From: Aplysia californica
Taxonomy: Eukaryota
NCBI RefSeq assembly: GCF_000002075.1
Contig: NW_004797359.1
Span: 1,532,711 to 1,596,710, forward strand
Reading direction: 5' to 3'
DNA length: 64,000 nucleotides
Shown here: positions 20,134 to 44,310 of the stretch, piece after piece
How positions within the stretch are numbered: the first letter of the stretch is position 1
Layout: each line of letters begins with the position of its first letter
Translations under genes and position numbers: made by a program
Notes under the pieces: generated by a model
Databases searched by the model: none
Told to the model about the DNA's origin: nothing
Seen by the model: the letters and a program-made list of their open reading frames with translations, nothing else

Positions 20134-20672
20134 TGGGATGTATGTCGCATAATTGATGCGGTGTGTTATGTACTGCCCTTCAACTGGCGAGGTCATGGTC
20201 TGTGTCTGTTGCCATCCCCCTCTCCTCCCCTTCCGTCTCCTTTTCTCTCTCTCTCTTGGCATTTTTCCCCCATTTTGAATTGAAAGTTACAGTATGGAAT
20301 GTCTTATGTCTTTGCTGTTGAATTTACAACCCAAAATGAGGTCAGACATATTGTGCCTTTATCATATCCATTTTATCTTTCGTCTGTGTGTGAGTGTGGG
20401 TGTGAATGGTAAAAGTGGCTGGGAATCGTTGAAGATGAGGAATGCAGAAATAAAATTTCATATGTGCTCTGTGATAAATCAAAAGGACAGACTGATTGTA
20501 AGTTGTAGACGAATGGTTGCAGTTCAGTTGTTTTTTTAATAAGCTTTCTTGCCCAAGCTCATACCTTTGTCATTTTTTAAATTCCCTTATGTCCATTTTA
20601 TCCTTTTAGTGCAAGTACTTAATTTATTCAAACTCTTGTATACTACTGTAGTTCGGTGTATGTGTAACAGCA

Positions 20673-20678
20673 AATAAA
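20673..20678 (+). terminator. Candidate poly(A) signal of MIIP
   Basis: AATAAA followed by T/GT-rich sequence, ~540 nt after the stop. Confidence 0.45.
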
Positions 20679-21572
20679 CTTAGCAATGGTATGGATGATA
20701 TTGTTAATGTGATTTCTTACTTTGACTTTTATGTGAGGAGTTGTTTTTTTCTAATTATTATAATTATATTTACTGTGGCTTCGCAGGGAAACCCACAAGA
20801 CTATTCCAAGTGCATTTTAGTGAAGTCGGTAGTCTAGTGATTAGGCTACCGGACTCAGACAATGTGGGTTCAAGGCTTAGCTCGGCCCGATGTTGTGTCC
20901 ATGGGAAAGGCACTTTTCATGAACTTCCCTCATTTCACCTTAGCGTGGGAGGGTACCCAGTCATCAGGGAAAGATTTGTCAGTATGTCCAAGTCCAGGTT
21001 TTTTGTGCCTCTGTGAAATGGAGGCTTGCACTCTAGGCTCCATGCCTGGGAGGCCAAGAATGCTTCTAGAGTCTTCTTGGGCAACAATGGTTGTGTGGCT
21101 CCTAGAACATGGATGCGATATACATATATATATATATATATATAAATTAAACGTAGTAACAGTCAACTTCGCTTGAGTTGATCTTCGGTTAAAGGGCTCA
21201 GGAGTCAAATTCCACACCAGGAGACCCAATTTTCTTGTAAAATATCGAAAATGAGTTTGAGACATTTTCTGACAGTTGGATCAATCTAGTTTACAAACAT
21301 GTATCTATTATAATGTTGAAAAACACTCAGAAAAGAGCGCTAAGTGAGTCCTCGCACTGCATAATTTATTTTTCACCCCTCTCATGACATCAACAGATCC
21401 TTCGTCAGCTGCGTTACTTACTACTCTGTGAAAAGTACTTGTGTCTGGGGCGAAATACATAGTAGTCTATGTCGGAGAAAAGAACATTCCAGAGCGAGAA
21501 AATGAAACGTAGAGAGTAACATGGTGAAAACAACTACAAATGCAGAAGCACACGAGTATGACTTTATAACAT

Positions 21573-21578
21573 TTTATT
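21573..21578 (-). terminator. Candidate poly(A) signal of PRXL2B/SelU3
   Basis: AATAAA on the minus strand ~230 nt downstream of the SECIS. Confidence 0.55.
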
Positions 21579-21804
21579 CAGAATATTTTTTAATGTTTCA
21601 TTTCTATAATGGCAAAAATATAAAAAATGTTATACTCATTCTTGAATTATACAGTGAACTTTGGTAAAAATAACTATCAACAAACTATCATTACTATCAA
21701 TGAAGAAAAAGTTTGATATATATATCATGATACTGTGGCCTAGTCAAGATGCACAATCTTCACTACACATGTGCAAACTGGCAGTGTTGCCCTGCCGAAG
21801 AAAG

Positions 21805-21897
21805 CTGGCGGTGCTCTTTTTGTCACGAGAGACCATTCAGCTGACACCGTGCCCGAGGGGTTTTTGGTGCCTGCGTCAAACACAAGAGCACAGCCAG
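21805..21897 (-). promoter_or_regulatory. Candidate SECIS element (type II, UUGA core) in the PRXL2B/SelU3 3' UTR
   Basis: Minus strand: CUGGC.GUGCUCUU pairs with AAGAGCAC.GCCAG (helix I); UGAC/UGAA kink-turn core; GCAGGCACC/GGUGUCAGC helix II; apical AAAAA with a CCC/GGG mini-stem. Confidence 0.78.
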
Positions 21898-23676
21898 TCA
21901 GTCTTGAAGCCAGCAGTTGCCAGTTTGGACACGTGTATACTCACCAGTTACACACTTCACTAGCACCCAGTACTGATAACGAGCATTAAATTAAGGCTTT
22001 GATAAAAACTGAATGAAATGTAAGAACCCATACAGTACAAATGAAATTGAAAGAATGATACAGTTATACAGTCCACATCAATCGCACAGGAATGTATCAC
22101 GAGTCATGTATTCACCTAGATCTATCACTACAAACTGACAAACAATCTTGACCACGGAATCAAAACTTTGAGAAGAGATGACAACGTCAAAATGCGAAAA
22201 AAAAAAAAAGTTTCGCTACAAGATCTTCTAATCAGACATATGTATATGGTATATCAAAAGTTGCCCGAAATATTTTGATGAAAGCATGTAGAAATACCTG
22301 AGCCAGTCAAAAAAAAAAAAAAAAGAAGGAAAACCAGGAAAAATGTCCTGACTCTCGAATTGTAAATTTCTGCTCTCCACCATATCCCTGAACTATATAA
22401 ATAAAAGAGAATTTCCAGGCCCAAATCATAAAGACGATGAAATCATTAAGTATTCTGTCTGGCTAAAACTTAAACATTACATTGCGCAAGTCACAATTCG
22501 GATACATTTGATTTTCCCAATGTCATTCTTTAGTTCCAGAACAACAAATAAATATATTGAAATCAGGAGAAGACTACAACACTTCATCATCCCCCACCAC
22601 ATGAGCAATAAGGCACTCGCAGAAAACCTGAACCAAAATGAAAAGACAGTAATACAGTACAGAAGACTACCAAAGTATTGCCCGTTTTGAACTTGAAAAT
22701 TTGATTTCCTCTAAACTAAACCTGATTTATGCGACTCTTAACATTCTACCATCCTGCTTTTCAAATGCTTCTCATCCTGGCATAACAACATCAACAACAC
22801 GTGCAATATTGGCAAAAACACTCCTCACCCTGCAGAGATAGCACCAGTTTCTCTGTGTAGTGTCATTGACTCAGAATGCTATTTACAAACACTGTGTACA
22901 TGTGGTTAGTAGAAAAACCAATTACAGGCTTGCCAACTTTTGAGCTACTGAATTCTGGAATTTTGAATGCTTCAGAGCGCCACGGACACACACTCCTGTG
23001 ATAGGCCACAAAAACCGCTCAAACAAACCAGTGGAGAAACGGAGAGAGAGATGAGAATGTAACAGCACAGTTACTACACATACCCCTTTGTCCATGCCTT
23101 CGAGTTTTGGTTTTTCTAAGAAAAAAATAATACTTTTGGAGAGGGGGGGGCACATCGTGCTGGTGTCTCGGGAAAGGTTCGGGAATGACAATTGCAATTC
23201 TGGAATTTCCTGAAAAATTCAGGAAGGTTGGCAAGCCTGCAATTTTTTTTGTTTTTTCATAGTGAAGAGAATACAAAATACGCCTACTGACCGTTTAGAA
23301 AAAAACAACCTCCTCTCTCTTATCACATAACTAAAACAAGTGCAGGTGTTTGCACACTGTAGTAGAAAAATAACAAAACAATCTGTGCCATTACGTTTTC
23401 AACAAAGGTTTCGTACCATCCTAAAATGAATGTCCAGCACGTAACTCCATTAAAAGTTACAAGATATATTTCATGTTTCAGTTGTACCCTGAAGGACACA
23501 GAAACAAAAGCCTTATAAACTGTTTCTAATCAATAACTACACCTTCAACTGCCAGACCCATCCTCCCACCTGAATATTTCACAACTTAACTCTACCGTAC
23601 GACTATGTGCAGTATTTTTTTTTCTTCCTCACATTTTATAAAGCTTAACAAACAGCCAACTGAACTGTTTTGATCA

Positions 23677-23843
23677 CTACGACTGTGACTTTTTGGGCAG
23701 GGCACAAGCTCCGTTGTCGCAGTCCACTGCAGGAGCTGCCTCCACCTCCACGCTGCCTTCTATGCCCAGAGCTTTCAACACATCGTTCGGGTCCACGTGC
23801 TCCCCGGGATTCTCTTGCTTGTACGTCAGGAGAGCTTTTCCGC
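23677..23843 (-). CDS. PRXL2B: PRXL2B/SelU3 terminal exon
   Basis: GKALLTYKQENPGEHVDPNDVLKALGI...CDNGACALPKKSQS-TAG. Confidence 0.9.
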
Positions 23844-26800
23844 CTGGAAAGAAAATTTACACCTCGTGAAAGTCTCTGCTAACGCACGTCTGTATTGAGA
23901 CAATGATGGTTGTTGAAGCGTGAAGCCCATACTGAAGACACAAGGGAATAAAAGAAGGAGGAGTTGGCGCAGGGGGGGAGAAAGTTTCGTGTGTGTGTGT
24001 GTGTGCGCACTGAACTATCTCTTCCAGTCACATGGATAAAGCCTAAAGGCCCGGTTTCACGGAACGATAAATTGTACAAAAACTGGACGATCTAGCGATC
24101 ATACGATAAATCGTTAGGTGTAACCACAAAATTGTACCAAATTTGGACAATTGAACGATGGTTTGGAGACTCGATCTAGAAATCAAGCCCTGCTTGATAT
24201 TTTCTGTGCGATCACAGTCAAACTTGAGGGAGACGCGCTGTGACGTAGATTCACTTTGAAATTTGCCGCTGCGCAAAATTAAACTCAGAACTCAAATTTT
24301 AAAAAATAATTACCGTACGTAAAAACTGATTTCATATTCGTAATCAGCGTCTCATAATATGCAAAGTTGCTCGCGGTGAACCTGATTTGGTTGGTTATTA
24401 TTTATATTTTAGCAATTTTATTATTCAGTTGATTGTCAATTGTGAAACTGCATTAAGGTCACTCTGTGCATTGCACATCTGCAGTCAGGTCAAAGCTTCC
24501 GGTTCTACACACACACAGTAGGCCTACAGTACGGCCACCCTTTTCTAAAGACACTGTTCTGCTATATCAAAATGTACAGGGGGGGGGGCTTCTGTGATCT
24601 AGAGGTAGTGTTCGCCTTTCATTCATTAGGTCCAAAGCTCGAAACCTTCACATAGAGAGCAGGCAATTCGCGTTCGTTGCAGAGACATGGTGGCTTTATG
24701 ACGAGGAATCTCCTCAATCGATAGAAAACTGGATGATAGATTGGAACGTGTAAACAGACAACAGTTCGATCAAACAGACAGTTCTCTCATACGACGAATC
24801 TGATACTATTTATCCTAGCATGTAACCCGGGCTTAACACAATGGATGAGAAAGCCTGAGTGGTGAATATTATCTGGCCTATTCACAGAGGCACTCGACAA
24901 CACAAAGAACATTTGTGAGAACACAGAGGCAGAGAGAATGGTACACGATACATGTAGGAGAAATGAGGACAAGAGCAGGGCATCCAGATTAGGAGTAAGA
25001 TACCCAGCTAAGGCAAGTGGCCTCTTTGTCTGGGCATCCATTATGACCCATTTCAAAACAGCCTTTCCACCCACATTTGACAGGCTTCCCCCTTGTCCTT
25101 CTAATTATCTTCTCAACAACAGGTTCGGGGGGNNNNNNNNNNNNNNNNNNNNNNNNNNNNNNNNNNNNNNNNNNNNNNNNNNNNNNNNNNNNNNNNNNNN
25201 NNNNNNNNNNNNNNNNNNNNNNNNNNNNNNNNCCCCTCACCTACCCCATCAGCGGGGCCCTGACCTAATGCATTGATACTCCACAACCCTCTTGGGACTC
25301 TTGGCAACCTCTGCAGACCTTGAATTGTTGAAAGTTTCAAGTAAACAAGCTTGACCTCACTACAGAGCAAACAGTGACCCTCGACCTTGGCAGTACATTT
25401 TATCACTGATTAAGGTGCCAAAAACCGAAATCAGTCATATTACTATACCGTATGTACCGTCAAATTTATCTGAACTTAAAGCAAAATCATTTTTCAACAA
25501 CAGCCAGTTATAACTATCAGGTAGAAGTCTCTGCAGTCCATATGTAGCGTCGGTGGCCTAGTAGTTAGGCTCAAGGATCTGAACAATCAGGTAGGCACAA
25601 GCCCCAACACGCATTCATCAAAACCGAAGTTCAAGGTTCAAATTGTACAAAGCAAGAGACCTAAATTCAATTATATCAAAAGTAATTTCTTTAATTAACT
25701 TTTCAACGCAAAGCAAAAGGCCCATGCTGGGCATCAGTAGCAACTGCTGAGTGCCTCCAGACAATAGCACATCCTCGGTCAAGGCTGTCGGACTCCTGTC
25801 ACCAAAAATCACACAACGCATCCTTTTTTTTTTGCTCACGATTTAAGTAAGAGTTTTATGGCACTTTCAACACAAATAGATCATATGAGTGCCGAATTTT
25901 AAAAGATATTAGTAAAGAGTAACAAACAAAGAAAAAGAAGGAGTGACAAAGAGAACATTGTCTTTGATAGGAAAGAAGGAGCAAACCACACCAGAGCACC
26001 CGCGAACCACCCACACACATTACGGTGTCATTACCTTGATCAATGACAAAAGCACCTCCGTTCTGCCAACCATCGCCTTGAAAGTTGCCACTCACGTTCT
26101 CCTCCTTACCCTGAAACAACCAGAGGAAAAACTGTATTTCAAACACATTTACTTTTTCTAACAGAGATGTTTTATGCCCTCATCGACACAATTTAGATCA
26201 TTTGGGAGGAGCGCTTGGAATCCGTCTATCAGGACACACCAGGCCAAGAATGAGAAGGTTACAACTTCCCAGCTTAGCAGTGAGACTAAGATACTTCCTA
26301 AAACACCCCTTCCCCCAACCCCATGGAATCGAACTCAAGTCTCCTGTGTGCGAAGTGCCTAACCACAACACCAGCAGACACCAGTAATGTTACACATAAT
26401 GAAAGGAAGGTAATTATGTACGATAAATAACAGTCATAAATATAATATTAAAATAAATAAATTCTTTGTACCTATGAAACGAGATCATTTTTCATCAAAA
26501 CCAAATGAAAGGAAAAAGGCAAGATGAAAAATGAGAAACAGCACGAGGAAACGAAAGAAGAAAATTTAAAAAATCTGCATTAGTAGTTAAGAAACAGTCT
26601 GATATTTCTGCACACAAAAAGACCACCAAATATATTACCTTGGCGAGGGTGTCTCTTGTCTTCTTCCCAAACATAGATGGGATCAGGGAGAACACATTTA
26701 ACCTGCAATAATAATTACAGCAATAATGAAGTACTAACAAACATTCAGTTCAATTTTGAAACAAGGACTACAGTGAAACAGAAAGGTTAATGTATAAAAC

Positions 26801-29800
26801 TATCAATTATGGAAGCAGGAATAGCATTGTGAATTCACTTTCAGAAAGTTTTTGTTCTACAACACATTGAAACAAGAATACACATATAAAGTAAGCACCC
26901 AGAAAAAGTCAAATAGACAGATAGAGCCAGTAAAAGGAAAGAAAAGAAAGTAGGGCCTACTGTCACTGATCTCCCAGGCTCATTTACTCACCCAAGAATA
27001 GAGGAATACACAACGGATGCTTGTTGAGTTCTCATATATGCTTTGCCTTATTTGAAAAGCAATAATCTATGATACCAAGGTTCAACTTCACTTTTTCATT
27101 TTTCTTTTTAATATAGGCATTTCTAACATCCCAATCAATAAAATTTAGATCGCTTTCAGGGCAGGCTTTCAACCCTGCCTGTCAGGGCCAACCCAGGCAG
27201 AGAGGGATGCAACATCCCAACAGAAAGAGCAAGATACTCAATAAAAAATAAACTCCCTATTTGGGAATCAAATTCGGATCTCCAGAGGGTGATAGCCAAG
27301 CAAGCACCTAACCGCTACACCACAGACATAAATACTTCACTTTTCGTCAACTATTATTAACACTGATTACAAGACAGAAAGAGTCCAAACCATAGAAGTA
27401 CATTTGTAACAGCCTTTGCCAAAGATCCCATTGCTTTTTGTCCCAGATTNNNNNNNNNNNNNNNNNNNNNNNNNNNNNNNNNNNNNNNNNNNNNNNNNNN
27501 NNNNNNNNNNNNNNNNNNNNNNNNNNNNNNNNNNNNNNNNNNNNNNNNNNNNNNNNNNNNNNNNNNNNNNNNNNNNNNNNNNNNNNNNNNNNNNNNNNNN
27601 NNNNNNNNNNNNNNNNNNNNNNNNNNNNNNNNNNNNNNNNNNNNNNNNNNNNNNNNNNNNNNNNNNNNNNNNNNNNNNNNNNNNNNNNNNNNNNNNNNNN
27701 NNNNNNNNNNNNNNNNNNNNNNNNNNNNNNNNNNNNNNNNNNNNNNNNNNNNNNNNNNNNNNNNNNNNNNNNNNNNNNNNNNNNNNNNNNNNNNNNNNNN
27801 NNNNNNNNNNNNNNNNNNNNNNNNNNNNNNNNNNNNNNNNNNNNNNNNNNNNNNNNNNNNNNNNNNNNNNNNNNNNNNNNNNNNNNNNNNNNNNNNNNNN
27901 NNNNNNNCTGCTGGGGTAATAATATAGTGTAAAGCGCATAGAGCCTGCTGTTGAGCGAGGATATGCGCTATACAAATGCTATTTATTATTATTATTATTA
28001 TTATATACACAAACCAACACAGTGAGATATTCTCATTATTGACTAAACAGAGACCACAATTATATATTCTTTTCACCCATTGCTTGCTAACCTGGGAGAT
28101 TTTGGTAGGTGGCAGGGGGTGGGGATTACCTGAGTAGTGACGCATGTTATTTAATACCTCGCTTGGAACTACATGTAGAAGGCAGACGATTGGTACGAAA
28201 AGTTTAGCCTCTTAAAGTGACAAAAATGGACGCTGGCTATAAAAAAAATTGACAAACACTGCTTTAACTTGTATGACAACGCAACAACTCCAGTTTCAAT
28301 AGATAGATGGGGGGTGTGAGAGGTTAGAGATTTTTAAAAGTACCTGGTGAAATGTTAGATCAAGCATCTGATGGCTTTCTACCTCCTCATGGTGTTGCTC
28401 GAAACTATTAAGTATGCCCTTCACTGTTTTGTATTTAATCTAAATTCACTACTTTGTCTTTGTGTACTCATTACTACTTTGTATGCTCTAAATAAAATTG
28501 CTTTGTAAGCTCTGAAATGCTTACAACAACTCAACAATGAATCTAAGCAAAGTTAACAGAGGAAGAAGGAATTACTCCTTTAATTTCAACAGAGCACACA
28601 GGCATTTTTATGGCACCTCCTCAAGGGTTCCCTTCTTTAACTAAGACAAGTTTTTGCCCCTCTGTAATATCTTAAGAGTTAGAAACTACAAAAATAAAAC
28701 TCTTACTGAGTTATAAAACCAAGGGATTCAGATAAGGTTTGACCGGTCAATAAGTTGATAAACAGTCCCATGACTCATCCTTAGGCCCTGAAGATTACAC
28801 CACATCAACGAGGTCAAATTCTTACAAAACAAAGTTCACTGCACTTCGAACAAGAAATTGAGTAATTTTCCATGAAAACAATCATTTCAACTTTCCTCTT
28901 CTTATTCCTTTCTCCTCATCCTTCCCCGGCTCCCCTCTTTTTTTTTCTCTCCTGATTAGCTACATGTCATTACCATTACCCCCCCCCCCCACCCCACCCC
29001 CCAAAAAAACTGCTGCCTTTTACACAACCAAGCATAAATCTAAGTCTGAGTTCCATTCATCACAATTATTAGTGATATTCCTAACACTTCCTCTGGCACT
29101 CTTATTTTATTCAACATATGTAAAGATAGCATTACCCGATTGCCATTTTGAGAGAAAGAGGGACAGAAAGAGAGAGGGAGAAAGAGAAAGGGAAGGAGAG
29201 AGAGGGAAGGAGAGAGAGAGACTAGAGAGAGAGAGAGAGAGAGAGAGTGAGAGTGAGAGAGAGACAGGGAGAGGGAGAGAGAGTGAAACAGAAACTGAGA
29301 GGGAAAAAGAGGGAGGGGTGGAAGGAGAGAGAGAGACATCTTGTTTGACTTGGGTGTGCGCATGTATAGTGCAAGCTGTTGACAAAGCAGGTGAAAGCAC
29401 CCTGTTCATTTCTTTCTCTAGTAAGCCTATTAAATTATGTAATACCAGCACGTTATAGCTCTGGTTAAATTATCAATGAAAAATGGAACCTCACTTTCAA
29501 CAAGCCAAAGTGACTGAAATCTATTTGGTAACTTGTACTCGTATTATTAAATCACGCCTAAACAGCAATGAAATATAGAAAAATAATATTCACCATAAAC
29601 AATTACAATGAATGAAAGATTCCAAAGAAAAAACAGTGCTGCTTACCTTCTAAAACCAAGCTTTTTGTAACAGTCTTTCTTCTGGTCAATGTACAGGTCT
29701 GTGACAAAACAGAGTTATTCCTTTGTGAGTAAGAGTACTTTAACTAAAAAAAAAGAATTTCATCAAAATACTTCCACCACAAAAACACAATTTCTTATTA

Positions 29801-32800
29801 ATCTTTTTTTTTTCTTTCTATGAGTATGAGCAATCTCTCCCAATTGAAAATCCTCCTTTACTTAACCAAACAAAATCCAGGGGTCCCGCAGATCCAACTT
29901 TAAACGGACTCCACTGTACAGTGGAAACCTGATATAACAGGGATGGTGGGACCAGAGAAAAAGTCCTTTTATATCAGATCTCTGTAAAATCAGAGAAGCA
30001 AGGGAAGTAAGCATTTGTGGACTAATCCAGCAGTATTTATCATATGCATGGGTAGTTTCCCTTGCCACAAGCACCATGTGGCAGGCCTGCACATGACACA
30101 TTACGCGTGCGGGTAGCTAGGGCTAGATCAAAGTCTGCAGCACTCTGCAGCCCTCTCTCGCTTCAGTCGCTGTGTGTGCTAGCAGTGGCATGGTTTGCGT
30201 GGGCTTGCTCCATAACTGCGTTACTCTCTCTCTCTCTCTCTCTTACTTTTTACACATTGTTAACGAGCCTTTGTCCCTGCTATAACCGATTGGGCTCAAA
30301 TGAGGCCCTGTTATTGCCGATAACTTTTAATAGAGACAAAAAGTAGGAAAAAACGGGGACTTTAAAAATCGCTGTTATTATCGGATTCCTGTTATTTCCG
30401 GGCCTGTTATATATGGTTTCCACTGTATATTAACTTTTGTCTATAAATATTAAAACTGTTAACATAACAGTAACAGAACTCCGTTCAAAATTACATCATT
30501 TACTCAACCAGCCCCTCCCCGCCACACAGGCTGTAAAGGATCTCAGCAATGTTTCGGCAACTGATAAAAATTCTATAAACCTTCGATATAGAAAGTCTTA
30601 AGCTTAATATTCTGTAACATGACATAGGTATGGGTATACACAGTTAATTAAGTTAAAATAAGATAAATATATGTGTGGTACCAGGGTGAAATCAGGCGCT
30701 CCTCATAAAAATGAAATCAAAGAAACTGGAAACCAGCATTTCTCTGCCTGTTGGGCGTTGGGCATTTTTTTTTCCAGCACAACACCTTTCAAGTCCACTT
30801 AAATCACATTTCCAGGTGGATTTTACTGACAGAGGTTGATCAAAGGCACAAAAAATTAAATTTGCAACTTCCATCATCATCATCATTGCCTTTCTCACCC
30901 TGGGTCAGGAATAGGCCACGAACAAAAACTCTAGACTTTTCCCTATCCCGGGCTAGTCGCTTGATGTCACTCCACATCTTCCCACTTTTCTGTACAATTG
31001 ATTTTGCAACTTACAAGTACACATTGAAAATCTTTAAGTCACCAAACCATGGAGACCAATTTACTCACTAATTTTACTTCCCAAACTAAGCAACTCAACT
31101 TCCATGGATTGTAACAACTTCTGTTCAAGATAGGAGGAGTTTCTTTTAATCAATTAGAGAATACATGACATGGATTCACTCATGATATGCTCAAATTTGG
31201 CGAACATATATTTTCACTTTTTAAATCATATTCTTACCTCCTTTGAAAAATTCTCCTTTCACAAAGTCCTCTACGCCAAGTTCCTCAAGGCCGATACCCA
31301 CAAATTTAACATTGTTAGCATCAAACCGAGGTTTCAACTGGCTTATCTGCTGGGCTCCAACCCGACACAACTGTCATCCGAAGCGACGCAGAAAAATGAG
31401 GACCACTCGAGAATCCTTCCAGAATGACTCAATGGGCACCATCTGAAACAATACACATGAAATCTTCACACCTAGATTATCTTCTCTAGATCTAGAGTCT
31501 AGATCTATAGGCTTGTTTGTTTTTGTAAAGTGTTTTACGGCGCTCGCAACTGCATAAGGTCATATGAGCGCGCAGGACACACCTAATATTTTCAGTTGGT
31601 AGGAAATTTTGAATTTTGCCCGGGTGGCAGCCAAAGCCTACTCTTATCGATTTTATACCACCAATGGATCTTTAATGTGCGCAACTTGCACACGGGCCCT
31701 CTGAGATTTTTCGCCCTTGTCTGAGAAGGCTAGGTGTAGATCTTTCCTACCAGGAGATCAAGGGTGTGGCAGAAAGACAGCAGTAAGGAGGAGCCAAGGA
31801 GTAGCAGTAGAAAGGATGCAGAAAGAGTCAGGAGCCTAAAGGAGGGAGCAAAGGAGGTGAGGGGGTGGGGGCAGAAAGTGGAAATGAAAGCAGACAACAG
31901 AACATTGCTAGAGAGCAGGAAAGAAGGTGAAAGGAGACAATTTTAGAGAAGAAAATTTTTCGATCGCTACCCGGATTCAAACCCGTGACCTTTTGAATGA
32001 GAGGCCAACACCTTAACCTCTAGGCCACAAGAGCTCCGGCATCTTATAGGCTACATATATATATGGCATGGGGATATGATTCTGAAAGAAAGTGGCTATT
32101 CTCACCCGGGTGGGAATAGAAATACGATCGACCTCTCACCCCGGGTGAGACTTGCCACCATAGGCTATTCTCACCCGGTGTAAAACAAGACCTGCTTAAT
32201 TTTCCTAATTTCGGAATATTTTCTATCAATGTGGATGATCAAACGGATAAAGGCAAAGAAACGAATATGTTATAGCACAAAAGTAAGCTAATTGTATCTA
32301 CTACAAAGATGCTATGGCTATTTCACTTTTCGAATCGAGCCGAACTACGGGGGTCGCTATTTTGTTTTGCCCGGAAGTTCTCGCAAGATCTACTCCTCCC
32401 CTCTTCTCTCTCTCTGTTTCTTTCTGAATACTGTCTATCAGTGTGGACGATCAAATTGACCAAATCAAAGTTAAAAAATGATGTTAAAACACAAAAGTAA
32501 ATTAATTTGGTCGTCTACAAAGACGCTACGGCTATTTAACTTTTCGAATCGAGCCGAACTACGCGGGTCGCCATTTTTGCCCGGAAGTTCTCGCGCTACT
32601 CCTCTCTCTCTCTCTCTCCACTGCCCACAGACAAAATTGTTCGCTTTTAGTAGGCTAACAGTAGTAATGGAACGTTTGTTCACGGCACAGAATTCTACAA
32701 TTTTTCTGTTATATCACAGTGTAGAATTCTGTGGTTTAGGGTGAACGCAAAATTGGTTGGCCTAGATCTAGGCTATAGCGGTGAACGCCCACCGGGTGAG

Positions 32801-33181
32801 AATAGCCAAAAGACTCGCCTGCGCTATTCTCAGGTGGCCATTGTGAAACTAAAATAAACAAGTGCCGAAATGCAATTTCTTGAGAAACTAAATTGCAGCA
32901 GAAATACATGTACAACAGGTAGACTCTATGTCAGTTGAATTAGCCATAACCCACCATATCTAATAAAATGGAAGGTTAATTTATAATAAAATCCACGTCG
33001 TCACGGGTGACGGAATTGGAAAGCCTCCGAAAGCCCATGACGGATGATATCTCTAGCATTCCCGGTTCCGTCCATTGACCATGTTTAATAACGGGGTAAA
33101 AAAAAGTTGCAAAAATTTCAGCATTACCTCTCCAGTGGACACATTCTTCACTTGATTTTTTGCTATTTTTGAAGGCTCCAT
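23677..33181 (-). CDS. PRXL2B: Selenoprotein U3 / peroxiredoxin-like 2B (prostamide/prostaglandin F synthase family), Sec-containing, 6 exons, ~205 aa (span includes introns)
   Basis: Exons 33181-33128, 31442-31238, 29698-29647, 26702-26639, 26110-26035, 23843-23677; all GT-AG and phase-compatible. Protein MEPSKIAKNQVKNVSTGE-MVPIESFWKDSRVVLIFLRRFG(U)QLCR...VGIGLEELG..DLYIDQKKDCYKKLGFRR..GNFQGDGWQNGGAFVI..YKQENPGEHV..VLKALGI matches the FAM213B layout. Confidence 0.92.
24048..24833. mobile_element. Possible PIF/Harbinger-like MITE
   Basis: Imperfect TIRs GGCCCGGTTTCAC / TGTAACCCGGGCT with TAA-like flanks. Confidence 0.4.
26035..26110 (-). CDS. PRXL2B: PRXL2B/SelU3 exon 5
   Basis: GKEENVSGNFQGDGWQNGGAFVIDQG. 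Confidence 0.92.
26639..26702 (-). CDS. PRXL2B: PRXL2B/SelU3 exon 4
   Basis: LNVFSLIPSMFGKKTRDTLAK. Confidence 0.88.
29150..29337. repeat. (GA)n-rich tract (pure (GA)n also at 40277-40335)
   Basis: Read directly. Confidence 0.95.
29647..29698 (-). CDS. PRXL2B: PRXL2B/SelU3 exon 3
   Basis: DLYIDQKKDCYKKLGFR; AG/GT bounded. Confidence 0.9.
29919..30425 (-). mobile_element. Shorter MITE of the same Tigger-like family
   Basis: TA-CAGTGGAAACC...GGTTTCCACTG-TA; reverse-complement match to 35099-35969 without the transposase part. Confidence 0.85.
31238..31442 (-). CDS. PRXL2B: PRXL2B/SelU3 exon 2 containing the Sec UGA (31376-31374)
   Basis: FLRRFG-TGA-QLCR; homology continues past the TGA in the same frame. 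Confidence 0.93.
31514..32040 (-). mobile_element. SINE family B copy
   Basis: Reverse complement of 55361-55872; flanking TATAGGCT at 31506 and 32045. Confidence 0.85.
32088..32839. mobile_element. MULE-like non-autonomous element, family F
   Basis: Subterminal inverted GGCTATTCTCACCCGG / CCGGGTGAGAATAGCC, internal ~175-bp duplication, 9-bp flanks ATTCTGAAA/ATTGTGAAA. Confidence 0.7.
33128..33181 (-). CDS. PRXL2B: PRXL2B/SelU3 exon 1 (may extend in frame to an ATG at 33301)
   Basis: ACAATGG start, MEPSKIAKNQVKNVSTGE, donor GTAATG. Confidence 0.8.
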
Positions 33182-35098
33182 TGTGGTTGTAGGGGCTTCC
33201 AACGGCTCCAAGTAGTTCACGAGTGCAAGGAACGGCCAAAAGACAACTTTACACAACAACCACACAGCTATCGTCAGCCACTCTTGTAGCTCTGATCCCA
33301 TGACGTTAGAGTTGTTTCCCGTGCTTGTTATGAAAACAAATGTTATGTAAAGCTACACACTTGCCAAGTAAGGTAGTTTATAGCTTAATTTAGCGGTAAA
33401 AAAATCTTACAATGAATCTGTTTTTTGAGATTGAATTAAGTATTTCTGCAGTTGTAGAGTTAAATTTAAAAAATATATAGATCTATTATTTTTTATTTTA
33501 TTTTAGTGTGAAAATTGATAATCATTCAGTTTTACCAAAGTAAACAAAAAAGTTCTTTTTGTAATAGTAGCTTAATCCAAAAATGAAGAAAATGCAGGAA
33601 AAATATAGAGAGAGAATACCGATCGAGATCACGTGACAATTAAATTCAGCCACAAAATTCTGTGAATTCAGCTGATCGATCACGATCTCTTACTCATTCT
33701 TACATAATTTTCTTGGGTTCATGTGGGAGCGGCGGAATGAAAACACATGAAAACTTACTGGTTGTAAAGTAAGGGGGAAATGCGGAAATCCAATACTCAT
33801 CTAATATAATATTTGTAGGGGTTTTAAAATCTATATTATACCTAATTCTCGGTTTAACTTGTAAATTAATTAATTTCTTTTGGAGCAGAAACTTCTATAA
33901 TAAGACTCTCAGGAAGACCCCCCACCCCCAACTCCAATCCGAAAAAAAAGTTATTTCCAGTGCCAATTACGGCATGTNNNNNNNNNNNNNNNNNNNNNNN
34001 NNNNNNNNNNNNNNNNNNNNNNNNNNNNNNNNNNNNNNNNNNNNNNNNNNNNNNNNNNNNNNNNNNNNNNNNNNNNNNNNNNNNNNNNNNNNNNNNNNNN
34101 NNNNNNNNNNNNNNNNNNNNNNNNNNNNNNNNNNNCAGATAGATGATCGGAGTCAAAGCCTTAAAAAAAAAAAAAGGGGGGGGAATTTTTTTGGGCCCCC
34201 CCCCCCCCCCCCCCCCCCAAGAAAAACAATTACAACAACTAATTACTGTCTACGCTAGGCATTTTTTACACGTACCGTACATATTAGCTACCTATGATCA
34301 CTCTTACAGAATCACCACACTCACTCCAATAGGCTTATATATTAATTACTGACTGAAACAATTTGGTCTGCTATTATTATAACTATCACCAGTATGATAA
34401 AGCAGATTCTACAGACACTAGCATTTAATATGTGTAAATTTAGCAGGCGCAAAAAAAATGAATGACCATTTCTAAACCAAAAGCCACGATATGACGTCGT
34501 AGCGTTAATTTAACTTACTGAGATCAGCCGAAACTTCGAACACTCTCTTCACTCGACCATATTATATTATAAATTGGTTGTTTATCATAATAATATACAC
34601 ACACATTATAAAGCAGTAGCTGTCGGTCTCCTTATTCAATGTCCTCACAATAGTGTTGATGGTCAGCCACCGCCGGCTCTGCTCTTAATAGATGTTACAT
34701 CATTTCAGTAACAATAGGTGATAAACATCGTCGTGTTGGCTTTAAACGTAAATAGTTACTTAAGGAACCCGAGTTGTGCTCCTGCGGGTGTAAAGTAAAC
34801 ATGCCCGTGCGTGGGTTTGTTTTTGTTGGCGTGTGAANNNNNNNNNNNNNNNNNNNNNNNNNNNNNNNNNNNNNNNNNNNNNNNNNNNNNNNNNNNNNNN
34901 NNNNNNNNNNNNNNNNNNNNNNNNNNNNNNNNNNNNNNNNNNNNNNNNNNNNNNNNNNNNNNNNNNNNNNNNNNNNNNNNNNNNNNNNNNNTGCGCTCCA
35001 ATCGACACAATTCAGAAGGCCGGCTTCGCGATTCTGCCTGTCAGGACCAGCACAGGCTGAGAGAGCATAGTATCCCAGGAGACAACCCCGAGTCGATA

Positions 35099-35969
35099 CA
35101 GTTGAAACCATATATAACAGGCCCGGTAATAACAGGGATCCGGTAATAACAGGGATTTTTTTAAATCCCCGTTTTTTCCTACTCTTTGTCTCTATTAAAA
35201 GTCATCAGCAATAACAGGGCCTCATCGGAGCCCAACATGTTATAGTTATAGCAGCAGGGACAAAGNNNNNNNNNNNNNNNNNNNNNNNNNNNNNNNNNNN
35301 NNNNNNNNNNNNNNNNNNNNNNNNNNNNNNNNNNNNNNNNNNNNNNNNNNNNNNNNNNNNNNNNNNNNNNNNNNNNNNNNNNNNNNNNNNNNNGCAAGCC
35401 CACGCAAGCCATGCCACTGCAAGCACGCGCAGCGTGTGAAGCGAGAGAGGGCTGTGGTGTGCTGCAGACCTCGATCTAGCTAGAAACCTAGCAACACGCA
35501 CGCGTAATGTGTCTCCAACGATGTCAAGCGCAAGATAAAATGCCTTTCAATTGACAAAATATACTAAATAACCCAGGCTGTTGACAAAAAGCAAGCTTCA
35601 CTGGCAGAGATTTGCCGTCAGTTCGACTTTCCACAAGGGTCGATTCACACCATTATCAAGGATAGAAAGAAAAAAGAGGCAGCATACTCTAATGGAAAGT
35701 TAGCTCTGGATCGAAAGAAGATGAGACTACCCGACGCAGATACTGTGGACCAGGCTCTTCTGATGTGGTTTAAGGAGGCAAGGAGAAAGTTGGTGCCAAA
35801 ACCTCTATTCGTGGGTACTTGTGGCAAGGGAAACTACCCATGAATAAGTACAGCTGGATTAGTCCACAAATGCTTACTTTCCTTGCACTTCTGATTTAAC
35901 AGGGATCGATATATTATAACAGGACATTTTCTCTACTTCCACCATATCTGTTATATCAGGTTTCCACTG
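35099..35969 (+). mobile_element. pogo/Tigger-like DNA transposon deletion derivative with a CENP-B-type HTH transposase remnant (~35507-35797)
   Basis: TA-flanked TIRs CAGT(T/G)GAAACC...GGTTTCCACTG; remnant KRKIKCLSIDK..SLAEICRQFDFPQGSIHTIIKDR..RKKMR..VDQALLMWFKEAR with an internal stop. Confidence 0.85.
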
Positions 35970-36285: not shown

Positions 36286-36841
36286 GTTGGGTTTTTTTTT
36301 CTTTTAAAGCGTTTTACGACGCTCGCAACTTCATACGGTCATATGAGCACGCGGGACACATAAAACATTTGTAGAAAATTTTGAATTTTGCCCGTGTGGC
36401 GGCCGAAGCCTACACTTAACGATTTAGTAGACCACCAAGAGATCTTTAACGTGCGCAACTTCCACACAGCACCTCCAAAATGTTTCGCCTTTGCCTGAGA
36501 AGGTTACGTGTACATCTTTCCTACCAGAAGATCAGGGATATGGCTGAAACTACTGAAAGACAGCAGTAAGATTAGTAGTAAGAACAAACCGAGGAGCAGC
36601 AGCAGGAAAGGCTGCAGAAAGAGTCAGGCGCCCAGAGGAGGAGGGAAAGGAGGTGAGAAGGTGGGGGCTGAAAGAGGTGTCGAAAGCCGAAAGCAGATGA
36701 CAGAACAAGCTAGAGAGCAGGAATGGAGGTGAAAGGAGACAATTTTAGAAAAGAAAACATTTCCGTCGCTACCCGGATTCCAACCCGGGACCTTTGAATA
36801 AGAGGTGAACACCTTAACCTCTTGGCCACGAGAGCCCCCGG
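36286..36841 (-). mobile_element. SINE family B copy
   Basis: Reverse complement of 55361-55872; TSD GGTGGGAAG at 36277-36285 and 36842-36850. Confidence 0.85.
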
Positions 36842-40397: not shown

Positions 40398-43300
40398 TCA
40401 AGTGGCCAAGGTGTAGGTGGCGTGGGTCTGGGGATGGAGGTTGGGGGAGTTCATCTCCGAGTGTACGACTTGTCTGTGGAGGTCAGCCGACTGGCCCAGC
40501 TGCTGAAGGTGAAGCAGGTCAGAACCGGCGGTGGGCACTTGCTGCAGGTGCTGTTGCAGCTGCTCCAGCGGCTGACTCAGGGTCGGCTGCAGCTGTATTC
40601 TATGGGGGTCAGAGGTCAAGGGAGTTAAAGGTTGCAGCTCAGCATGATGGTGGAAGTTGGCGCCAGTATCTAGGCCGAGGGTACCCGTGCTCCCAGCTGT
40701 TGGTTTTCCTGAGAGCTGGAAGAGCAAAGGAGGGGCTTGTAGGACAGAGGCAGAGCTGAGGGGGACCCTGGTGTTACCACAGGTGATGGAGAAGCTGCTG
40801 TTGCTGCTGTTGCCAATTACATCGAGGAGATTTTCTGGAGCAGAATGGTTCAAGACTGGTGTCTGCTGTAGCGGCTGCAGAGTCTGATGATGTTGCTGTT
40901 GTTGCTGCTGATGTGGCTGTAGAATTTGCAGCTGCTGATTATGATCTGTGGTCAGTGCGGGCGGGTTGTGAATGCCATGCGTTCGTTTTAAGTGCTTGAG
41001 CACCGAGGAGCGCTTCGTGAACCTTGTGTTGCAGATGTGGCATCTATGAGGCTTTTCCCCCGAGTGCAGACGTTCGTGGCTTCTCATGTGTGAAGAGCAG
41101 GTGAAAGCCTTGCCGCAGACACCGCACTTGTAGCGTCTCTCCCGGTTGGAGTCGTGAGTCTTCATGTGATCACGGAGATAACCTTTCAGGGAGAATCTCG
41201 CACTACAGATGGGACATGAGAAAGGTCGTTCTCCTGTGTGCTTCCTCACATGTCCTTCCATGTGCGACCTCTGCAAAAACTTCTGGCCACAGATCGGGCA
41301 CTTGAACGGCTCCTGGCCACTGTGAATCTTCATGTGTTTACTCAGCTGGTGGTTCTCGCGGTATGACGCCCCACAGAGCGAGCACACAAACGGACGCTCG
41401 CCCGTATGTTTCATGAGGTGGAGTTTGAGCTTGCAGGAGTGAGTGAATGACAGGCCACAGAACTCACACGAGAATCTATCTGCAGGCTTCACACCTTCAT
41501 GGATTCTTTTCACGTGTTTTTTCATGCTGGACATCTGCGAGAAAGCCATGTCACAAATGGTGCACTTGTACGGCTTCTCTCCCGTATGCTTTCTCTCGTG
41601 GTTGCGAAGCTGGTACGACTTGAGGAACGCTGCACCACACGTGGCACAGACGTGGGGTCGCTCTCTGTTCTGAGAGTGGATCTTCATGTGATTGCGGAGG
41701 TAGTAGGATAGCTTGAAGCTGACTCCACATACGTTGCAGGTATGCGGCTTATGATCGAGGTGGGTCTGTACATGGTTGTTCAAGGTCGTCTTCAGCAAAA
41801 ATCTTCTCCCACAAGTGGCACACTCGTGTCGTTTCTCCCCGGTGTGAATGTTTTTGTGATTGATCAAGATGCTCTTCTCTGCAAATGAAGCTCCACAGAT
41901 TTCACACATGAAGGGCTTGGTGGCGTTGTGCTTGCTCATTGCGTGCAACTTCAACTTTGAAGGGTACTGGAACTGCACCCCACAGATATTGCATGGGTAT
42001 CTACTAGTGCGATGTTCTTTCCGCCGGTGCTGATTGTATTCCTGCATGCTGCGAAAAGTCAGATCACAGTCTTCACATTTCACTTTTTCCTCTTTTGAAT
42101 GGGATACTTTATGCTGATCTAAAGCTCTCTGACTGTCAAAAGTCATTGGGCAGTTGGCACATTTGAACGTGAGAGACTCTGGATGTTCCTGGCGCATGTG
42201 TTTGGTGCGGTGAGACGAGCTGAGAAAATTCACACCACAAATGTCACATTTGTTGACTTTCTTCCTGGAATGAGTCCGTTGTACATGACGCTTTAACAGG
42301 TTCCTCGTGGCATAGGAGGAACTACACTCTGAGCACTTGTGCTTGGCATTTTTCTGTAAGTCTCGCCTAAGGGGCAAATTTGGTCCACATGTAATACTGT
42401 CTCCACCATCTTCTGGGTGGCTTGCTGAAGAAATACACGACTCAAGTTTATTGACCTCTAGGCAGGCCTGTCTTTCATTTACTCCCACTGAGTGAGAGCT
42501 CACGTTGTTTTCAGGTACTCCAGAAGAGAGATCCACATCATCTTCAGAGAGATACATGGTACCCAAGAGGCTTTCCTGATACTCTTCTTGACGTTTCATT
42601 TCAACACTCTCTTGCTTGGGACTGTCTATGCCATCAAATGTGCTCGATACATCATTAAGTTTGGGCCCAGTTTCACTCTGACCCTGAACTGCATCTTTTT
42701 TAAACACACGACAGATGACAGTTTCTGAGGATGACTCGTCCTTTGAGACTTTCTGTTCAGCTACATCCACATCAGAGACGCCGTACCTGACCACTTTCTT
42801 CACGTTACGTTTGGGTCGTCCAGGCTGAGTGACAAGGCCAGAACCAGATGTAACAGCTTTCCTCTCACTTCTTTCATTCCGGTCACAGCTCTCAGCATGG
42901 ACATGTGTCAGATTATCACCATTACCCCTCACTGCAGCATTATTGTTCACCAATGGATTACAAGATGAAGTGTCAACATTTTCACTATCACTGTCACAAT
43001 TTTCATTAAATGATAACTTCACTTGCAGACCAAACTTAGCACCTTGACACCTTCCAAAATCTTCAGAGGCAAAATTCAAACAGGTAGCTATGATTTGTTG
43101 AAGATTAACTTTATCCACACTTTGCAACTTTTGTCTCAGTTTTTCATCTCTCACTCCCTTCACAATTCTGGAAGACAGATACCTCTTTTTATGCTCCTCA
43201 AAACAACAATTGTCTGCCAGAGACAAGAGATCTACGATAAATGAGTGAACACTTTCATCATTGCCTTGACATCGGGTAAAAAACTTATGTCTTTCATACA

Positions 43301-43601
43301 GCAACAAGAAGCCAGGAACACAAAAATGTTCAATCTCTGTCAAAATATTTTCAAGCTCTTGTGGTTCAATTCTAATCTTAGAACTTGACAAATGGCTGTT
43401 GATTCTTTCCAAAAGCAGTTCACTCCCTCTGAGTAAGTATCTAAAGATGGAAGCTGTAGTGGCATGAGGAGTGAAATGAGATCTGTCAATTGCTGGCACA
43501 TTTTGACAGAAGAGTTGAAACCTGGCCTTGAGGATGGTCCATCTGCTGGAATCTGGCAAATCCTGGGAGCTCTTCTCGGGCCGCTGAATAGCAAACTCCA
43601 T
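40398..43601 (-). CDS. C2H2 zinc-finger protein (1067 aa, 16 fingers) with an N-terminal Ty3/Gypsy Gag-capsid-like domain and Q-rich tail (ZNF-B)
   Basis: Uninterrupted ORF with 16 C2H2 fingers. GCCATGG start with an in-frame upstream stop; polypyrimidine tract plus AG acceptor at 43657-43658. N-terminus contains HFCVP..YERHKFFTRCQGNDESVHSFIVDLLSLADNCCF..RIVKGVRDEKLRQKL. Confidence 0.95.
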   Translation of the reverse strand: MEFAIQRPEKSSQDLPDSSRWTILKARFQLFCQNVPAIDRSHFTPHATTASIFRYLLRGSELLLERINSHLSSSKIRIEPQELENILTEIEHFCVPGFLLLYERHKFFTRCQGNDESVHSFIVDLLSLADNCCFEEHKKRYLSSRIVKGVRDEKLRQKLQSVDKVNLQQIIATCLNFASEDFGRCQGAKFGLQVKLSFNENCDSDSENVDTSSCNPLVNNNAAVRGNGDNLTHVHAESCDRNERSERKAVTSGSGLVTQPGRPKRNVKKVVRYGVSDVDVAEQKVSKDESSSETVICRVFKKDAVQGQSETGPKLNDVSSTFDGIDSPKQESVEMKRQEEYQESLLGTMYLSEDDVDLSSGVPENNVSSHSVGVNERQACLEVNKLESCISSASHPEDGGDSITCGPNLPLRRDLQKNAKHKCSECSSSYATRNLLKRHVQRTHSRKKVNKCDICGVNFLSSSHRTKHMRQEHPESLTFKCANCPMTFDSQRALDQHKVSHSKEEKVKCEDCDLTFRSMQEYNQHRRKEHRTSRYPCNICGVQFQYPSKLKLHAMSKHNATKPFMCEICGASFAEKSILINHKNIHTGEKRHECATCGRRFLLKTTLNNHVQTHLDHKPHTCNVCGVSFKLSYYLRNHMKIHSQNRERPHVCATCGAAFLKSYQLRNHERKHTGEKPYKCTICDMAFSQMSSMKKHVKRIHEGVKPADRFSCEFCGLSFTHSCKLKLHLMKHTGERPFVCSLCGASYRENHQLSKHMKIHSGQEPFKCPICGQKFLQRSHMEGHVRKHTGERPFSCPICSARFSLKGYLRDHMKTHDSNRERRYKCGVCGKAFTCSSHMRSHERLHSGEKPHRCHICNTRFTKRSSVLKHLKRTHGIHNPPALTTDHNQQLQILQPHQQQQQQHHQTLQPLQQTPVLNHSAPENLLDVIGNSSNSSFSITCGNTRVPLSSASVLQAPPLLFQLSGKPTAGSTGTLGLDTGANFHHHAELQPLTPLTSDPHRIQLQPTLSQPLEQLQQHLQQVPTAGSDLLHLQQLGQSADLHRQVVHSEMNSPNLHPQTHATYTLAT

Positions 43602-44310
43602 GGCTTGTTAATGGTAAGAAAGTTGTGGTTCTTCCTTCAGTTCAGCTGGTCACCATCTGAAAAGGAAAAAAAAAAATCTTAGTATGGTATAATGTCAAAA
43701 TATTTGTTAAACAGGATGACAAATTACCACAGCTAACACTTTTAACAGTGTTGTCGCCGGTGGCAACTTGATTTTAATACAAAATTATAGCTGTCTTGCA
43801 TAACTCACAAGTACACCAAGACAGAATGGAAACTGATAGAGGTACAATCAGTCACTTCGCACCTTGTGTTTTTTTATCTTTTCTAGATGAGCTTTTAACT
43901 TTGCCTTCAATTTCTTTGTCTCCTTAATAATGCATCACTCTTGAAGTCTGGTATTGATCAAAATCTGGGCCATCCTGCTCAGTTCTTCTGCTGGCCCCTA
44001 CAGCTACTGTCAATGGGGTTAGCCCAGTTTCCAATCTCAATACTAGCATGTTGGTGATTGAGCTAGTTCAAAACATACAAGTATATTGTTGTCTATTATA
44101 ATGAGACTTTCCAAGACATCCACCTGTCTAATATTGTACAATCACTTTTCTCCTCAAAAATGGATGTCTGTCTAGGGCAATTTTGACTGTAGTTTACAAA
44201 CCCTTTTTCCAAAGTTAATTTAGCATGAGGAAAGGACATGATTCAAACAATGTAAATTGTAATGCTTATAATTTACGCAGTGGCTACGTTCACGGCGCAG
44301 TGAATGTAGT

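What the first reader, a model, noticed from the sequence alone, without database searches (positions are those of the whole stretch)
31360..31400. Hidden selenoprotein: in-frame UGA forms a UxxC redox motif in PRXL2B/SelU3
Seen: FLRRFG-TGA-QLCR in exon 2, with four further intact homologous exons downstream. Knowledge: human PRXL2B (FAM213B) has LRRFGCVVCR, so the UGA sits exactly at the first Cys of the thioredoxin-like CxxC. Mammalian SelU-family members are Cys forms, while Sec forms occur in other animals. Inference: Sec41 rather than a pseudogene stop; automated annotation would probably truncate or mis-splice this gene. A C-terminal CDNGAC could act as a resolving pair.
Basis: partly seen in the sequence, partly recalled or inferred. 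Interest (0 to 1): 0.7.

Follow-up and report, generated by a model that had tools for sequence, protein, structure and literature searches.

The report
Gastropod SelU3 selenoprotein with unusual SECIS
This intact, spliced snail or sea-slug gene has a UGA "stop" exactly where human PRXL2B has its catalytic cysteine, so it very likely makes a selenium-containing antioxidant-type enzyme of an already known invertebrate family that gene databases usually cut short.

Summary
Confirmed, but a known kind. On the minus strand a six-exon PRXL2B/SelU3 gene (all introns GT-AG) has one internal stop, TGA at 31376-31374, in FLRRFG-U-QLC, aligned with human catalytic Cys44. Contigs from six runs of six studies, four of them spliced, match exon 2 with no difference. 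Of 55 related loci, 40 show the motif: 38 TGA, 2 TGC. The 162 codons after the UGA are under purifying selection (dN 0.18, dS 1.83). The genome holds tRNA-Sec, SepSecS and a Sec-GPx gene with a SECIS. The protein groups with heterobranch gastropods. Sec-form SelU3 of invertebrates was described in 2012 (PMC3473315), and this scan noted the same kind in other genomes.

Three extras are less certain. (1) The best SECIS is a type II hairpin 1.8 kb into the 3' UTR with U instead of A before its core (about 70%); Rfam and two custom models missed it. (2) An upstream in-frame ATG would add a 40-residue hydrophobic segment resembling those of two relatives (about 45%). (3) The C-terminal CxxxxC is optional in the family, so at most an accessory relay. 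Sec insertion itself was not measured.

The parts
33182..33301 (-). In-frame upstream ATG (33301-33299) and 40-codon hydrophobic N-terminal extension; possible membrane-anchored long isoform (use of this ATG inferred, not shown)
   Evidence: Open frame, Kyte-Doolittle peak 2.1; similar to the N-termini of P0005 (0 of 5000 shuffles) and P0010 (10 of 5000), not P0021; spliced contigs reach 33297 at most
33128..33181 (-). Exon 1 coding part from the conserved domain-start ATG
   Evidence: GT donor; joint 33128/31442 in contigs of X2, X4, X20
31238..31442 (-). Exon 2 with the RRFG-U-QL-C redox motif
   Evidence: 0 differences in contigs of X5, X10 and X2, X4, X20, X6
31374..31376 (-). In-frame TGA, inferred selenocysteine codon (U41), aligned with human Cys44
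31365..31367 (-). Cys44, second residue of UxxC, inferred resolving cysteine
   Evidence: Cys in all 66 homologues that show the motif
29647..29698 (-). Exon 3
   Evidence: AG/GT borders, open frame
26639..26702 (-). Exon 4
   Evidence: AG/GT borders, open frame; tblastn-type match
26035..26110 (-). Exon 5
   Evidence: AG/GT borders, open frame
23677..23843 (-). Exon 6 coding part to the TAG stop
   Evidence: X10 contig holds 23210-23842 and exon 2 with 193 nt between, the length of exons 3-5 plus one base
23704..23721 (-). C-terminal C192-x4-C197 motif, possible accessory redox relay on a flexible tail
   Evidence: tail pLDDT below 50 in the model of relative P0002
21580..23676 (-). 3' UTR of about 2.1 kb
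   Evidence: X10 contigs cover 21602-23223 and 23210-23842; AATAAA sites
21836..21879 (-). Best SECIS candidate, type II, core UUGAC...UGAA (U at the usually purine position), 8 of 9 positions of helix II paired, A-run, 3-bp helix III; a helix I flanks it (about 21897-21803)
   Evidence: not recovered
22790..22866 (-). Weaker rival SECIS candidate with canonical AUGA but a long, branched, unstable apex
   Evidence: Top window hit of model R2, E 0.33; 1.0 of 9 expected pairs, folding z +1.4
21573..21594 (-). Two AATAAA hexamers, likely polyadenylation signals
   Evidence: X10 contig ends at 21602

Best explanation
This is an intact, single-copy, spliced SelU3/PRXL2B gene of a heterobranch gastropod whose in-frame UGA is very likely read as selenocysteine, giving a thioredoxin-fold reductase with a UxxC active site. 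Shown: gene anatomy, the TGA, its conservation, spliced transcripts, purifying selection, tRNA-Sec and SepSecS in the genome. Inferred: SBP2 binds the type II hairpin at 21879-21836 and, with eEFSec and Sec-tRNA, recodes UGA41. Inferred from human PGFS: the Sec41 selenolate, held next to Arg37 and Arg38, attacks a peroxide bond (a prostaglandin H-type endoperoxide or another lipid peroxide) and forms a selenenylsulfide with Cys44. It is then re-reduced from NADPH through a thiol reductase such as thioredoxin, perhaps helped by the mobile C192-x4-C197 tail. When recoding fails the UGA, 136 nt before the next exon junction, would end translation and likely trigger nonsense-mediated decay, which would tie the mRNA level to selenium supply.
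For: One internal stop in the 246-codon long frame, at the catalytic position. Spliced contigs from 4 runs of 4 studies and DNA-type contigs from 2 more keep the TGA. 38 TGA and 2 TGC among the 40 of 55 loci with the motif. L007, 96% identical to P0002, has TGA where P0002 has W, which explains the 15 W-x-x-C database proteins. After the UGA, dN 0.175 and dS 1.83 over 162 codons against L007; dS is 2.68 or saturated against three more. tRNA-Sec at 79 bits (cut-off 47) with anticodon TCA; SepSecS exons; a GPx gene with U and a GUGA SECIS. The SECIS candidate is the top hit of my pattern scan in all 128 kb of both strands; 1 of 300 UTR shuffles reach its score; its span (44 nt) and expected pairing (7.7 of 9) fall within the range of 20 homologue SECIS. 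A-to-U at this position cost only 22% of incorporation in rat GPx SECIS, as reported in PMC1874613. Profile hit to human PGFS at E 3e-57, and a model of a relative matches 9USA at rmsd 1.8. Cys44 is the proposed nucleophile of PGFS (PMC12938796).
Against: No peptide, ribosome-profiling or 75Se evidence. No canonical SECIS was found. Rfam gave no SECIS hit, and both covariance models built from homologue SECIS missed the candidate. Those models are weak: R1 also missed the two in-genome controls, and R2 scored them only E 0.075 and 2.2. The U-core pattern was tried after the canonical pattern gave nothing good. The hairpin's folding z is -1.0 against -3.1 and -2.7 for the controls, and the 3' side of its internal loop is long. 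All 20 homologue SECIS have A or G at that position. No gastropod 3' UTR long enough to test conservation was available (L007, L008). The substrate is untested.
Confidence: 0.95

Rival explanations
1. Sec is inserted, but the working SECIS is not the UUGA hairpin: it is the AUGA element at 22866-22790 or another element not seen.
For: Canonical AUGA, AAA 12 nt later and a UGAU 3' core; best window hit of model R2, 17.5 bits, E 0.33, between the two controls. All 20 homologue SECIS have a purine before the core.
Against: Span of about 77 nt against 39-60 in homologues; branched apex; 1.0 of 9 expected helix II pairs; 187 of 200 shuffles fold as well; pattern score 13 against 19.
Confidence: 0.25
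2. The gene is a pseudogene or a nonsense allele; translation stops at codon 41.
For: No canonical SECIS recognised by Rfam or by the custom models.
Against: Same TGA in 38 loci of diverse animals; dN/dS about 0.1 after the stop; all exons and splice sites intact; spliced contigs in 4 studies; no second Cys-form copy found in the genome search.
Confidence: 0.02
3. The UGA is read through with Cys or Trp, edited, or skipped by alternative splicing as some database models imply.
For: 15 database proteins show W here and 4 named models splice round the codon.
Against: The W is a TGA in L007, the near-identical DNA of P0002. The only alternative codon in related loci is TGC, the Sec/Cys pattern. 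All four spliced contigs carry exon 2 whole and unedited.
Confidence: 0.03

Closest known systems
Sec-form SelU3 of non-deuterostome invertebrates (Jiang et al. 2012, PMC3473315; six genomes including the gastropod Lottia gigantea)
   Same: SelU3/prostamide-prostaglandin F synthase lineage with Sec in place of the first Cys; a non-deuterostome host fits the paper's picture that Cys forms belong to deuterostomes.
   Different: The paper reports AUGA_AA SECIS for almost all invertebrates and GUGA_AA in sponge; the candidate here is UUGA_AA. The sections read (8, 11) mention no hydrophobic N-terminal extension or C-terminal CxxxxC. Its supplement, which holds gene structures and SECIS, could not be read.
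Human PRXL2B / FAM213B / PGFS (PDB 9US9, 9USA; PMC12938796)
   Same: 44% identity over 181 aligned residues; RRFG-x-x-x-C motif, both arginines and the proline loop kept; Pfam PF13911 in full-length relatives; same fold in a relative's model.
   Different: Sec for Cys44; a C-terminal CxxxxC that human lacks; a possible hydrophobic N-terminal segment; activity on PGH2 untested.
SELENOU1 / PRXL2A of fish and birds (PMC13134290)
   Same: Same family and fold; a Sec form in the same thioredoxin-like motif (family knowledge).
   Different: A different subfamily; in vertebrates all Sec-encoding SELENOU genes belong to the U1 branch and SELENOU3 is Cys.
Deinococcus FrnE with C-terminal CXXXXC (reviewed in PMC8945050)
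   Same: Works-like analogy only: thioredoxin-fold CXXC enzyme with an optional CXXXXC on a C-terminal tail that helps regenerate the active site.
   Different: DsbA family, bacterial; no homology was tested or claimed; no evidence here that the tail reaches the active site.

Membership tests
Eukaryotic selenoprotein gene | In-frame UGA at a position that is Cys in homologues, with conserved frame on both sides | tested here: met
Eukaryotic selenoprotein gene | UGA present in the spliced mRNA | tested here: met
   Spliced contigs of X10, X2, X4, X20 with 0 differences over exon 2; run kind is a guess, splicing shows mRNA origin
Eukaryotic selenoprotein gene | SECIS element in the 3' UTR | tested here: inconclusive
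   Well-formed type II candidate with a non-purine before the core; missed by Rfam and both models
Eukaryotic selenoprotein gene | Sec machinery in the genome | tested here: met
   tRNA-Sec, SepSecS, Sec-GPx with SECIS; eEFSec, SBP2, PSTK and SPS2 were not searched
Eukaryotic selenoprotein gene | Selenium found in the protein | not testable with these tools
   Needs 75Se labelling or mass spectrometry
Eukaryotic type II SECIS (PMC2647825 consensus) | UGAN/KGAW quartet, G-Y first pair, A-run about 11-12 nt after UGA, helix III | tested here: met
   UGAC/UGAA, G-C first pair, A-run from 10 nt after UGA, CCC/GGG helix
Eukaryotic type II SECIS (PMC2647825 consensus) | Unpaired purine before the quartet (usual, not invariant) | tested here: not met
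   U in the window and in the DNA contig of X5; the paper calls only UGA/GA invariable
SelU3 / PRXL2B subfamily | Closest named relatives are prostamide/prostaglandin F synthases; PF13911 domain | tested here: met
   the tree held no SelU1 or SelU2 rows, so it does not test the subfamily split
SelU3 / PRXL2B subfamily | Reduces PGH2 or prostamide H2 to the F2-alpha product | not testable with these tools
   Catalytic residues kept; activity unknown

The most novel reading that the evidence does not exclude
Many invertebrate SelU3 genes, this one included, use two starts in one exon to make both a soluble and a membrane-anchored Sec-dependent prostaglandin/lipid-peroxide reductase; here it is recoded by a natural UUGA-core SECIS and recycled through a C-terminal CxxxxC arm that some molluscs have repeated two to four times.
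Probability: 0.25. Interest if true: 0.55.

Novelty: new member of a known kind. Interest (0 to 1): 0.3.

Why it matters
The main result corrects annotation: mollusc PRXL2B entries named "prostamide/prostaglandin F synthase-like, partial" lack their catalytic residue because it is Sec (0 of 14 named invertebrate entries carry the motif). It gives a natural Sec counterpart of a human Cys enzyme with a solved structure, useful for asking what selenium adds to endoperoxide reduction. If the UUGA hairpin works, searches restricted to AUGA or GUGA miss real SECIS elements. If the long isoform exists, SelU3 has a membrane-bound form that my searches did not find in print.

Tried and rejected
Rfam scans of 15000-34000 and 21500-23900 gave no SECIS hit. 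RF00031 over the genome gave only 2 matches, both under the cut-off, so Rfam is insensitive here. Model R1 recovered 15 of its 20 training elements and neither control, and its ten window hits (E 2.6-8.7) did not include the candidate. Model R2 did not list the candidate at E up to 10. The first canonical-pattern scan gave only poorly paired AUGA/GUGA hairpins. A blastn of the UTR against the related loci found nothing. A protein search with exon 1 plus the extension found no hit (weak evidence). The Pfam Rdx family search of the genome found nothing (short exons, uninformative). No holder run is on record as RNA, and the two raw-read runs had no depth at exon 2. A conserved stem-loop right after the UGA (Sec redefinition element) was considered: mean folding z -1.3 in 24 genes against -0.14 to +0.20 in eight other windows, but -0.48 for this gene and no consensus pairs in 37 aligned sequences, so it is not supported as a shared structure. 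The protein part of the C-tail census used a faulty pattern for Cys forms and was redone. The bacterial promoter scan does not apply to this organism. The protein Atlas gave no answer. Literature searches that found no report of a gastropod SelU paper, of Sec-form PRXL2B by that name beyond one vertebrate survey, of a SelU N-terminal anchor or of a natural UUGA SECIS: (open-access library only).

Full report
Anatomy. The motif lies on the minus strand. Six coding exons were traced: 33181-33128, 31442-31238, 29698-29647, 26702-26639, 26110-26035 and 23843-23677, with GT-AG introns. The only internal stop is TGA at 31376-31374, codon 41 of 205 from the ATG at 33181, in FLRRFG-U-QLC. A genome search with a full-length relative gave 6 matches: five are exons 2-6 of this gene and one is a weak match on another contig, so no second copy was seen.

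Is the TGA real and in the mRNA? Eight runs were laid. Contigs from six runs of six studies cover exon 2 with no difference: X5 (DNA?, possibly the source of the assembly), X6 (probably DNA), and X10, X2, X4 and X20. X2, X4 and X20 join 33128 to 31442 across intron 1. The X10 contig holds exon 2 and exon 6 with 193 nt between, which fits exons 3-5 plus one base. A second X10 contig covers the 3' UTR to 21602, next to AATAAA at 21594 and 21578. The two raw-read runs (X23, X24) had minus-strand depth of 3-6 at the far 3' end and none at exon 2, so they do not test the codon.

Conservation. Of 109 homologous proteins, 51 have CxxC, 15 have WxxC and 43 lack the segment (41 without a match, 2 spurious matches). 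The named CxxC entries are vertebrate. None of the 14 named invertebrate entries carries the motif. Four (Plakobranchus, Mytilus, Capitella, Crassostrea) splice round it and ten begin after it. These tools may not show records that bear U, so correctly annotated entries could exist unseen. At DNA level, 40 of 55 related loci show the motif: 38 with TGA (37 distinct) and 2 with TGC. L007 is 96% identical to P0002 and has TGA where P0002 has W. The 162 codons after the UGA give dN 0.175 and dS 1.83 against L007. In a 30-row tree the protein falls in a 13-row clade (support 99/98) with Elysia, Plakobranchus, Biomphalaria and Candidula, so the host is likely a heterobranch gastropod.

Machinery. 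The genome has a tRNA-Sec (79 bits, cut-off 47, anticodon TCA) and SepSecS. The two weak RF00031 matches lie downstream of a glutathione peroxidase gene with U at its active site (Pfam GSHPx) and of ADP-ribosylglycohydrolase-like exons with an in-frame UGA (Pfam E 0.0014; SelJ-like by recall). I used them as in-genome SECIS controls.

SECIS. Rfam found none. A pattern scan with AUGA/GUGA cores gave scores of at most 12. After I relaxed the base before UGA, a hairpin at 21879-21836 scored 19, against 23 and 20 for the controls and 13-25 for 20 homologue elements. It is the best hit in 128 kb of both strands, lies 1798 nt after the stop and about 240 nt before AATAAA, and 1 of 300 dinucleotide shuffles of the UTR reach its score. 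Its minimum-energy fold is the type II shape, with span 44 nt and 7.7 of 9 expected pairs. It meets the consensus of PMC2647825 (main text read) except for U before the quartet. PMC1874613 (passages) reports that SBP2 prefers A and then U there, and cites a 22% loss for A-to-U in rat GPx SECIS. Against it: the relaxation was post hoc; folding z is only -1.0 (controls -3.1, -2.7); and two covariance models missed it, though they also missed or barely scored the controls. R2 preferred an AUGA element at 22866-22790 (E 0.33) that folds poorly. The two closest relatives with DNA, L007 and L008, show no SECIS in 1065 and 860 nt of UTR, which fits long UTRs cut short but gives no test. I put the UUGA element at about 70%.

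N-terminal extension. An in-frame ATG at 33301 adds 40 residues with a hydrophobic core. It resembles the N-termini of P0005 (Plakobranchus; 0 of 5000 shuffles) and unnamed P0010 (10 of 5000), whose Met sits at the same place, but not that of Mytilus P0021, which is hydrophobic and of like length. Of 27 loci examined, 16 had at least 90 nt upstream of the domain Met (9 were shorter, 2 lacked the Met). Eight of the 16, this gene included, have an open, hydrophobic in-frame stretch, against 0 of 32 off-frame controls. Without this gene the count is 7 of 15 against 0 of 30, Fisher p 1.4e-4. The thresholds were mine and the loci are related, so the p value overstates the case. Only 5 of the 8 show an upstream Met, and the close relative L007 has a stop 6 codons upstream. 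Spliced contigs reach 33297, 33273 and 33161: most of the extension is in the mRNA, but the ATG itself is not covered, and contigs cannot show starts. I give the long isoform about 45%.

C-terminal CxxxxC. It is present in 7 of 24 Sec-form transcript-like loci and in 32 of 42 full-length Cys-form proteins (9 more left out by length); human lacks it. Six proteins, five of them named molluscs, repeat it 2-4 times. In the AlphaFold model of relative P0002 the tail has pLDDT below 50, so contact with the active site is untested. Since UxxC has its own Cys44, the tail is at most an accessory relay, as proposed for FrnE (PMC8945050, passages).

Mechanism. A profile of 14 relatives hits human PGFS at E 3e-57, and the P0002 model matches 9USA at rmsd 1.8. 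In PGFS, docking places the PGH2 peroxide next to residue 44, beside Arg41, and Cys44 then forms a disulfide within the CXXC (PMC12938796, passages). The equivalent residues here are U41, C44, R37 and R38. Sec recoding, selenenylsulfide chemistry, the substrate and nonsense-mediated decay (UGA 136 nt before the next junction) are inferred from established selenoprotein biology, not shown.

Known or new. PMC3473315 (passages and sections 8 and 11; supplement unreadable) found Sec-form SelU3 in non-deuterostome invertebrates, with Cys forms in deuterostomes. PMC13134290 (passages) finds Sec only in the SELENOU1 branch in vertebrates. PMC3753652 and PMC2375036 were read as passages; the latter gives A or G as the bases seen before the quartet. 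Earlier notes of this scan record SelU3-type selenoproteins in other genomes; I did not check them. Verdict: a real, ordinary member of a known kind, with two unproven features (UUGA SECIS, anchored isoform) worth a bench test. Interest 0.3.

Noticed in passing
L065:3375-4100 and L006:1512-1555 (G000 contig C140): GPx4-like glutathione peroxidase gene with in-frame UGA at the active site and a GUGA-core type II SECIS about 3 kb or less downstream of the exons seen.
   Followed up: partly
L064:2786-3530 and L005:1511-1554 (G000 contig C52): ADP-ribosylglycohydrolase-like exons with an in-frame UGA and an AUGA SECIS downstream; SelJ-like by recall.
   Followed up: partly
L002:1500-1586 (G000 contig C485): tRNA-Sec gene, anticodon TCA.
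   Followed up: yes
L069 (G000:C166:200132-200266): One exon of a paralogue, 51% identical over 47 residues to a SelU3 relative; looks like SelU1/PRXL2A by recall; its active-site exon was not examined.
   Followed up: no
L007-L055, first 30 nt after the UGA: Fold more stably than synonymous shuffles on average (mean z -1.3 in 24 genes; the two TGC loci +0.4 and +1.0), but no shared structure.
   Followed up: yes
P0005, P0008, P0016, P0017, P0081, P0105: C-terminal CxxxxC unit repeated 2-4 times in tandem in Plakobranchus, Elysia and Haliotis SelU3.
   Followed up: partly
window 9629-12394 (-) and 40398-43607 (-): Two long open frames (921 and 1069 codons, stop to stop) rich in C2H2 zinc-finger repeats.
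   Followed up: no
window 13277-14419 (+) and 19675-20133 (+): Open frames that look like exons of a plus-strand gene converging on the SelU3 3' end.
   Followed up: no
window 31475-33100, 29850-31070, 25780-26200: High-copy interspersed repeats in introns 1, 2 and around exon 5; copies of the intron 1 and intron 2 elements recur near 36300-36820 and 35100-35960.
   Followed up: no
window 60085-60800: Short-period tandem repeat open in three frames.
   Followed up: no
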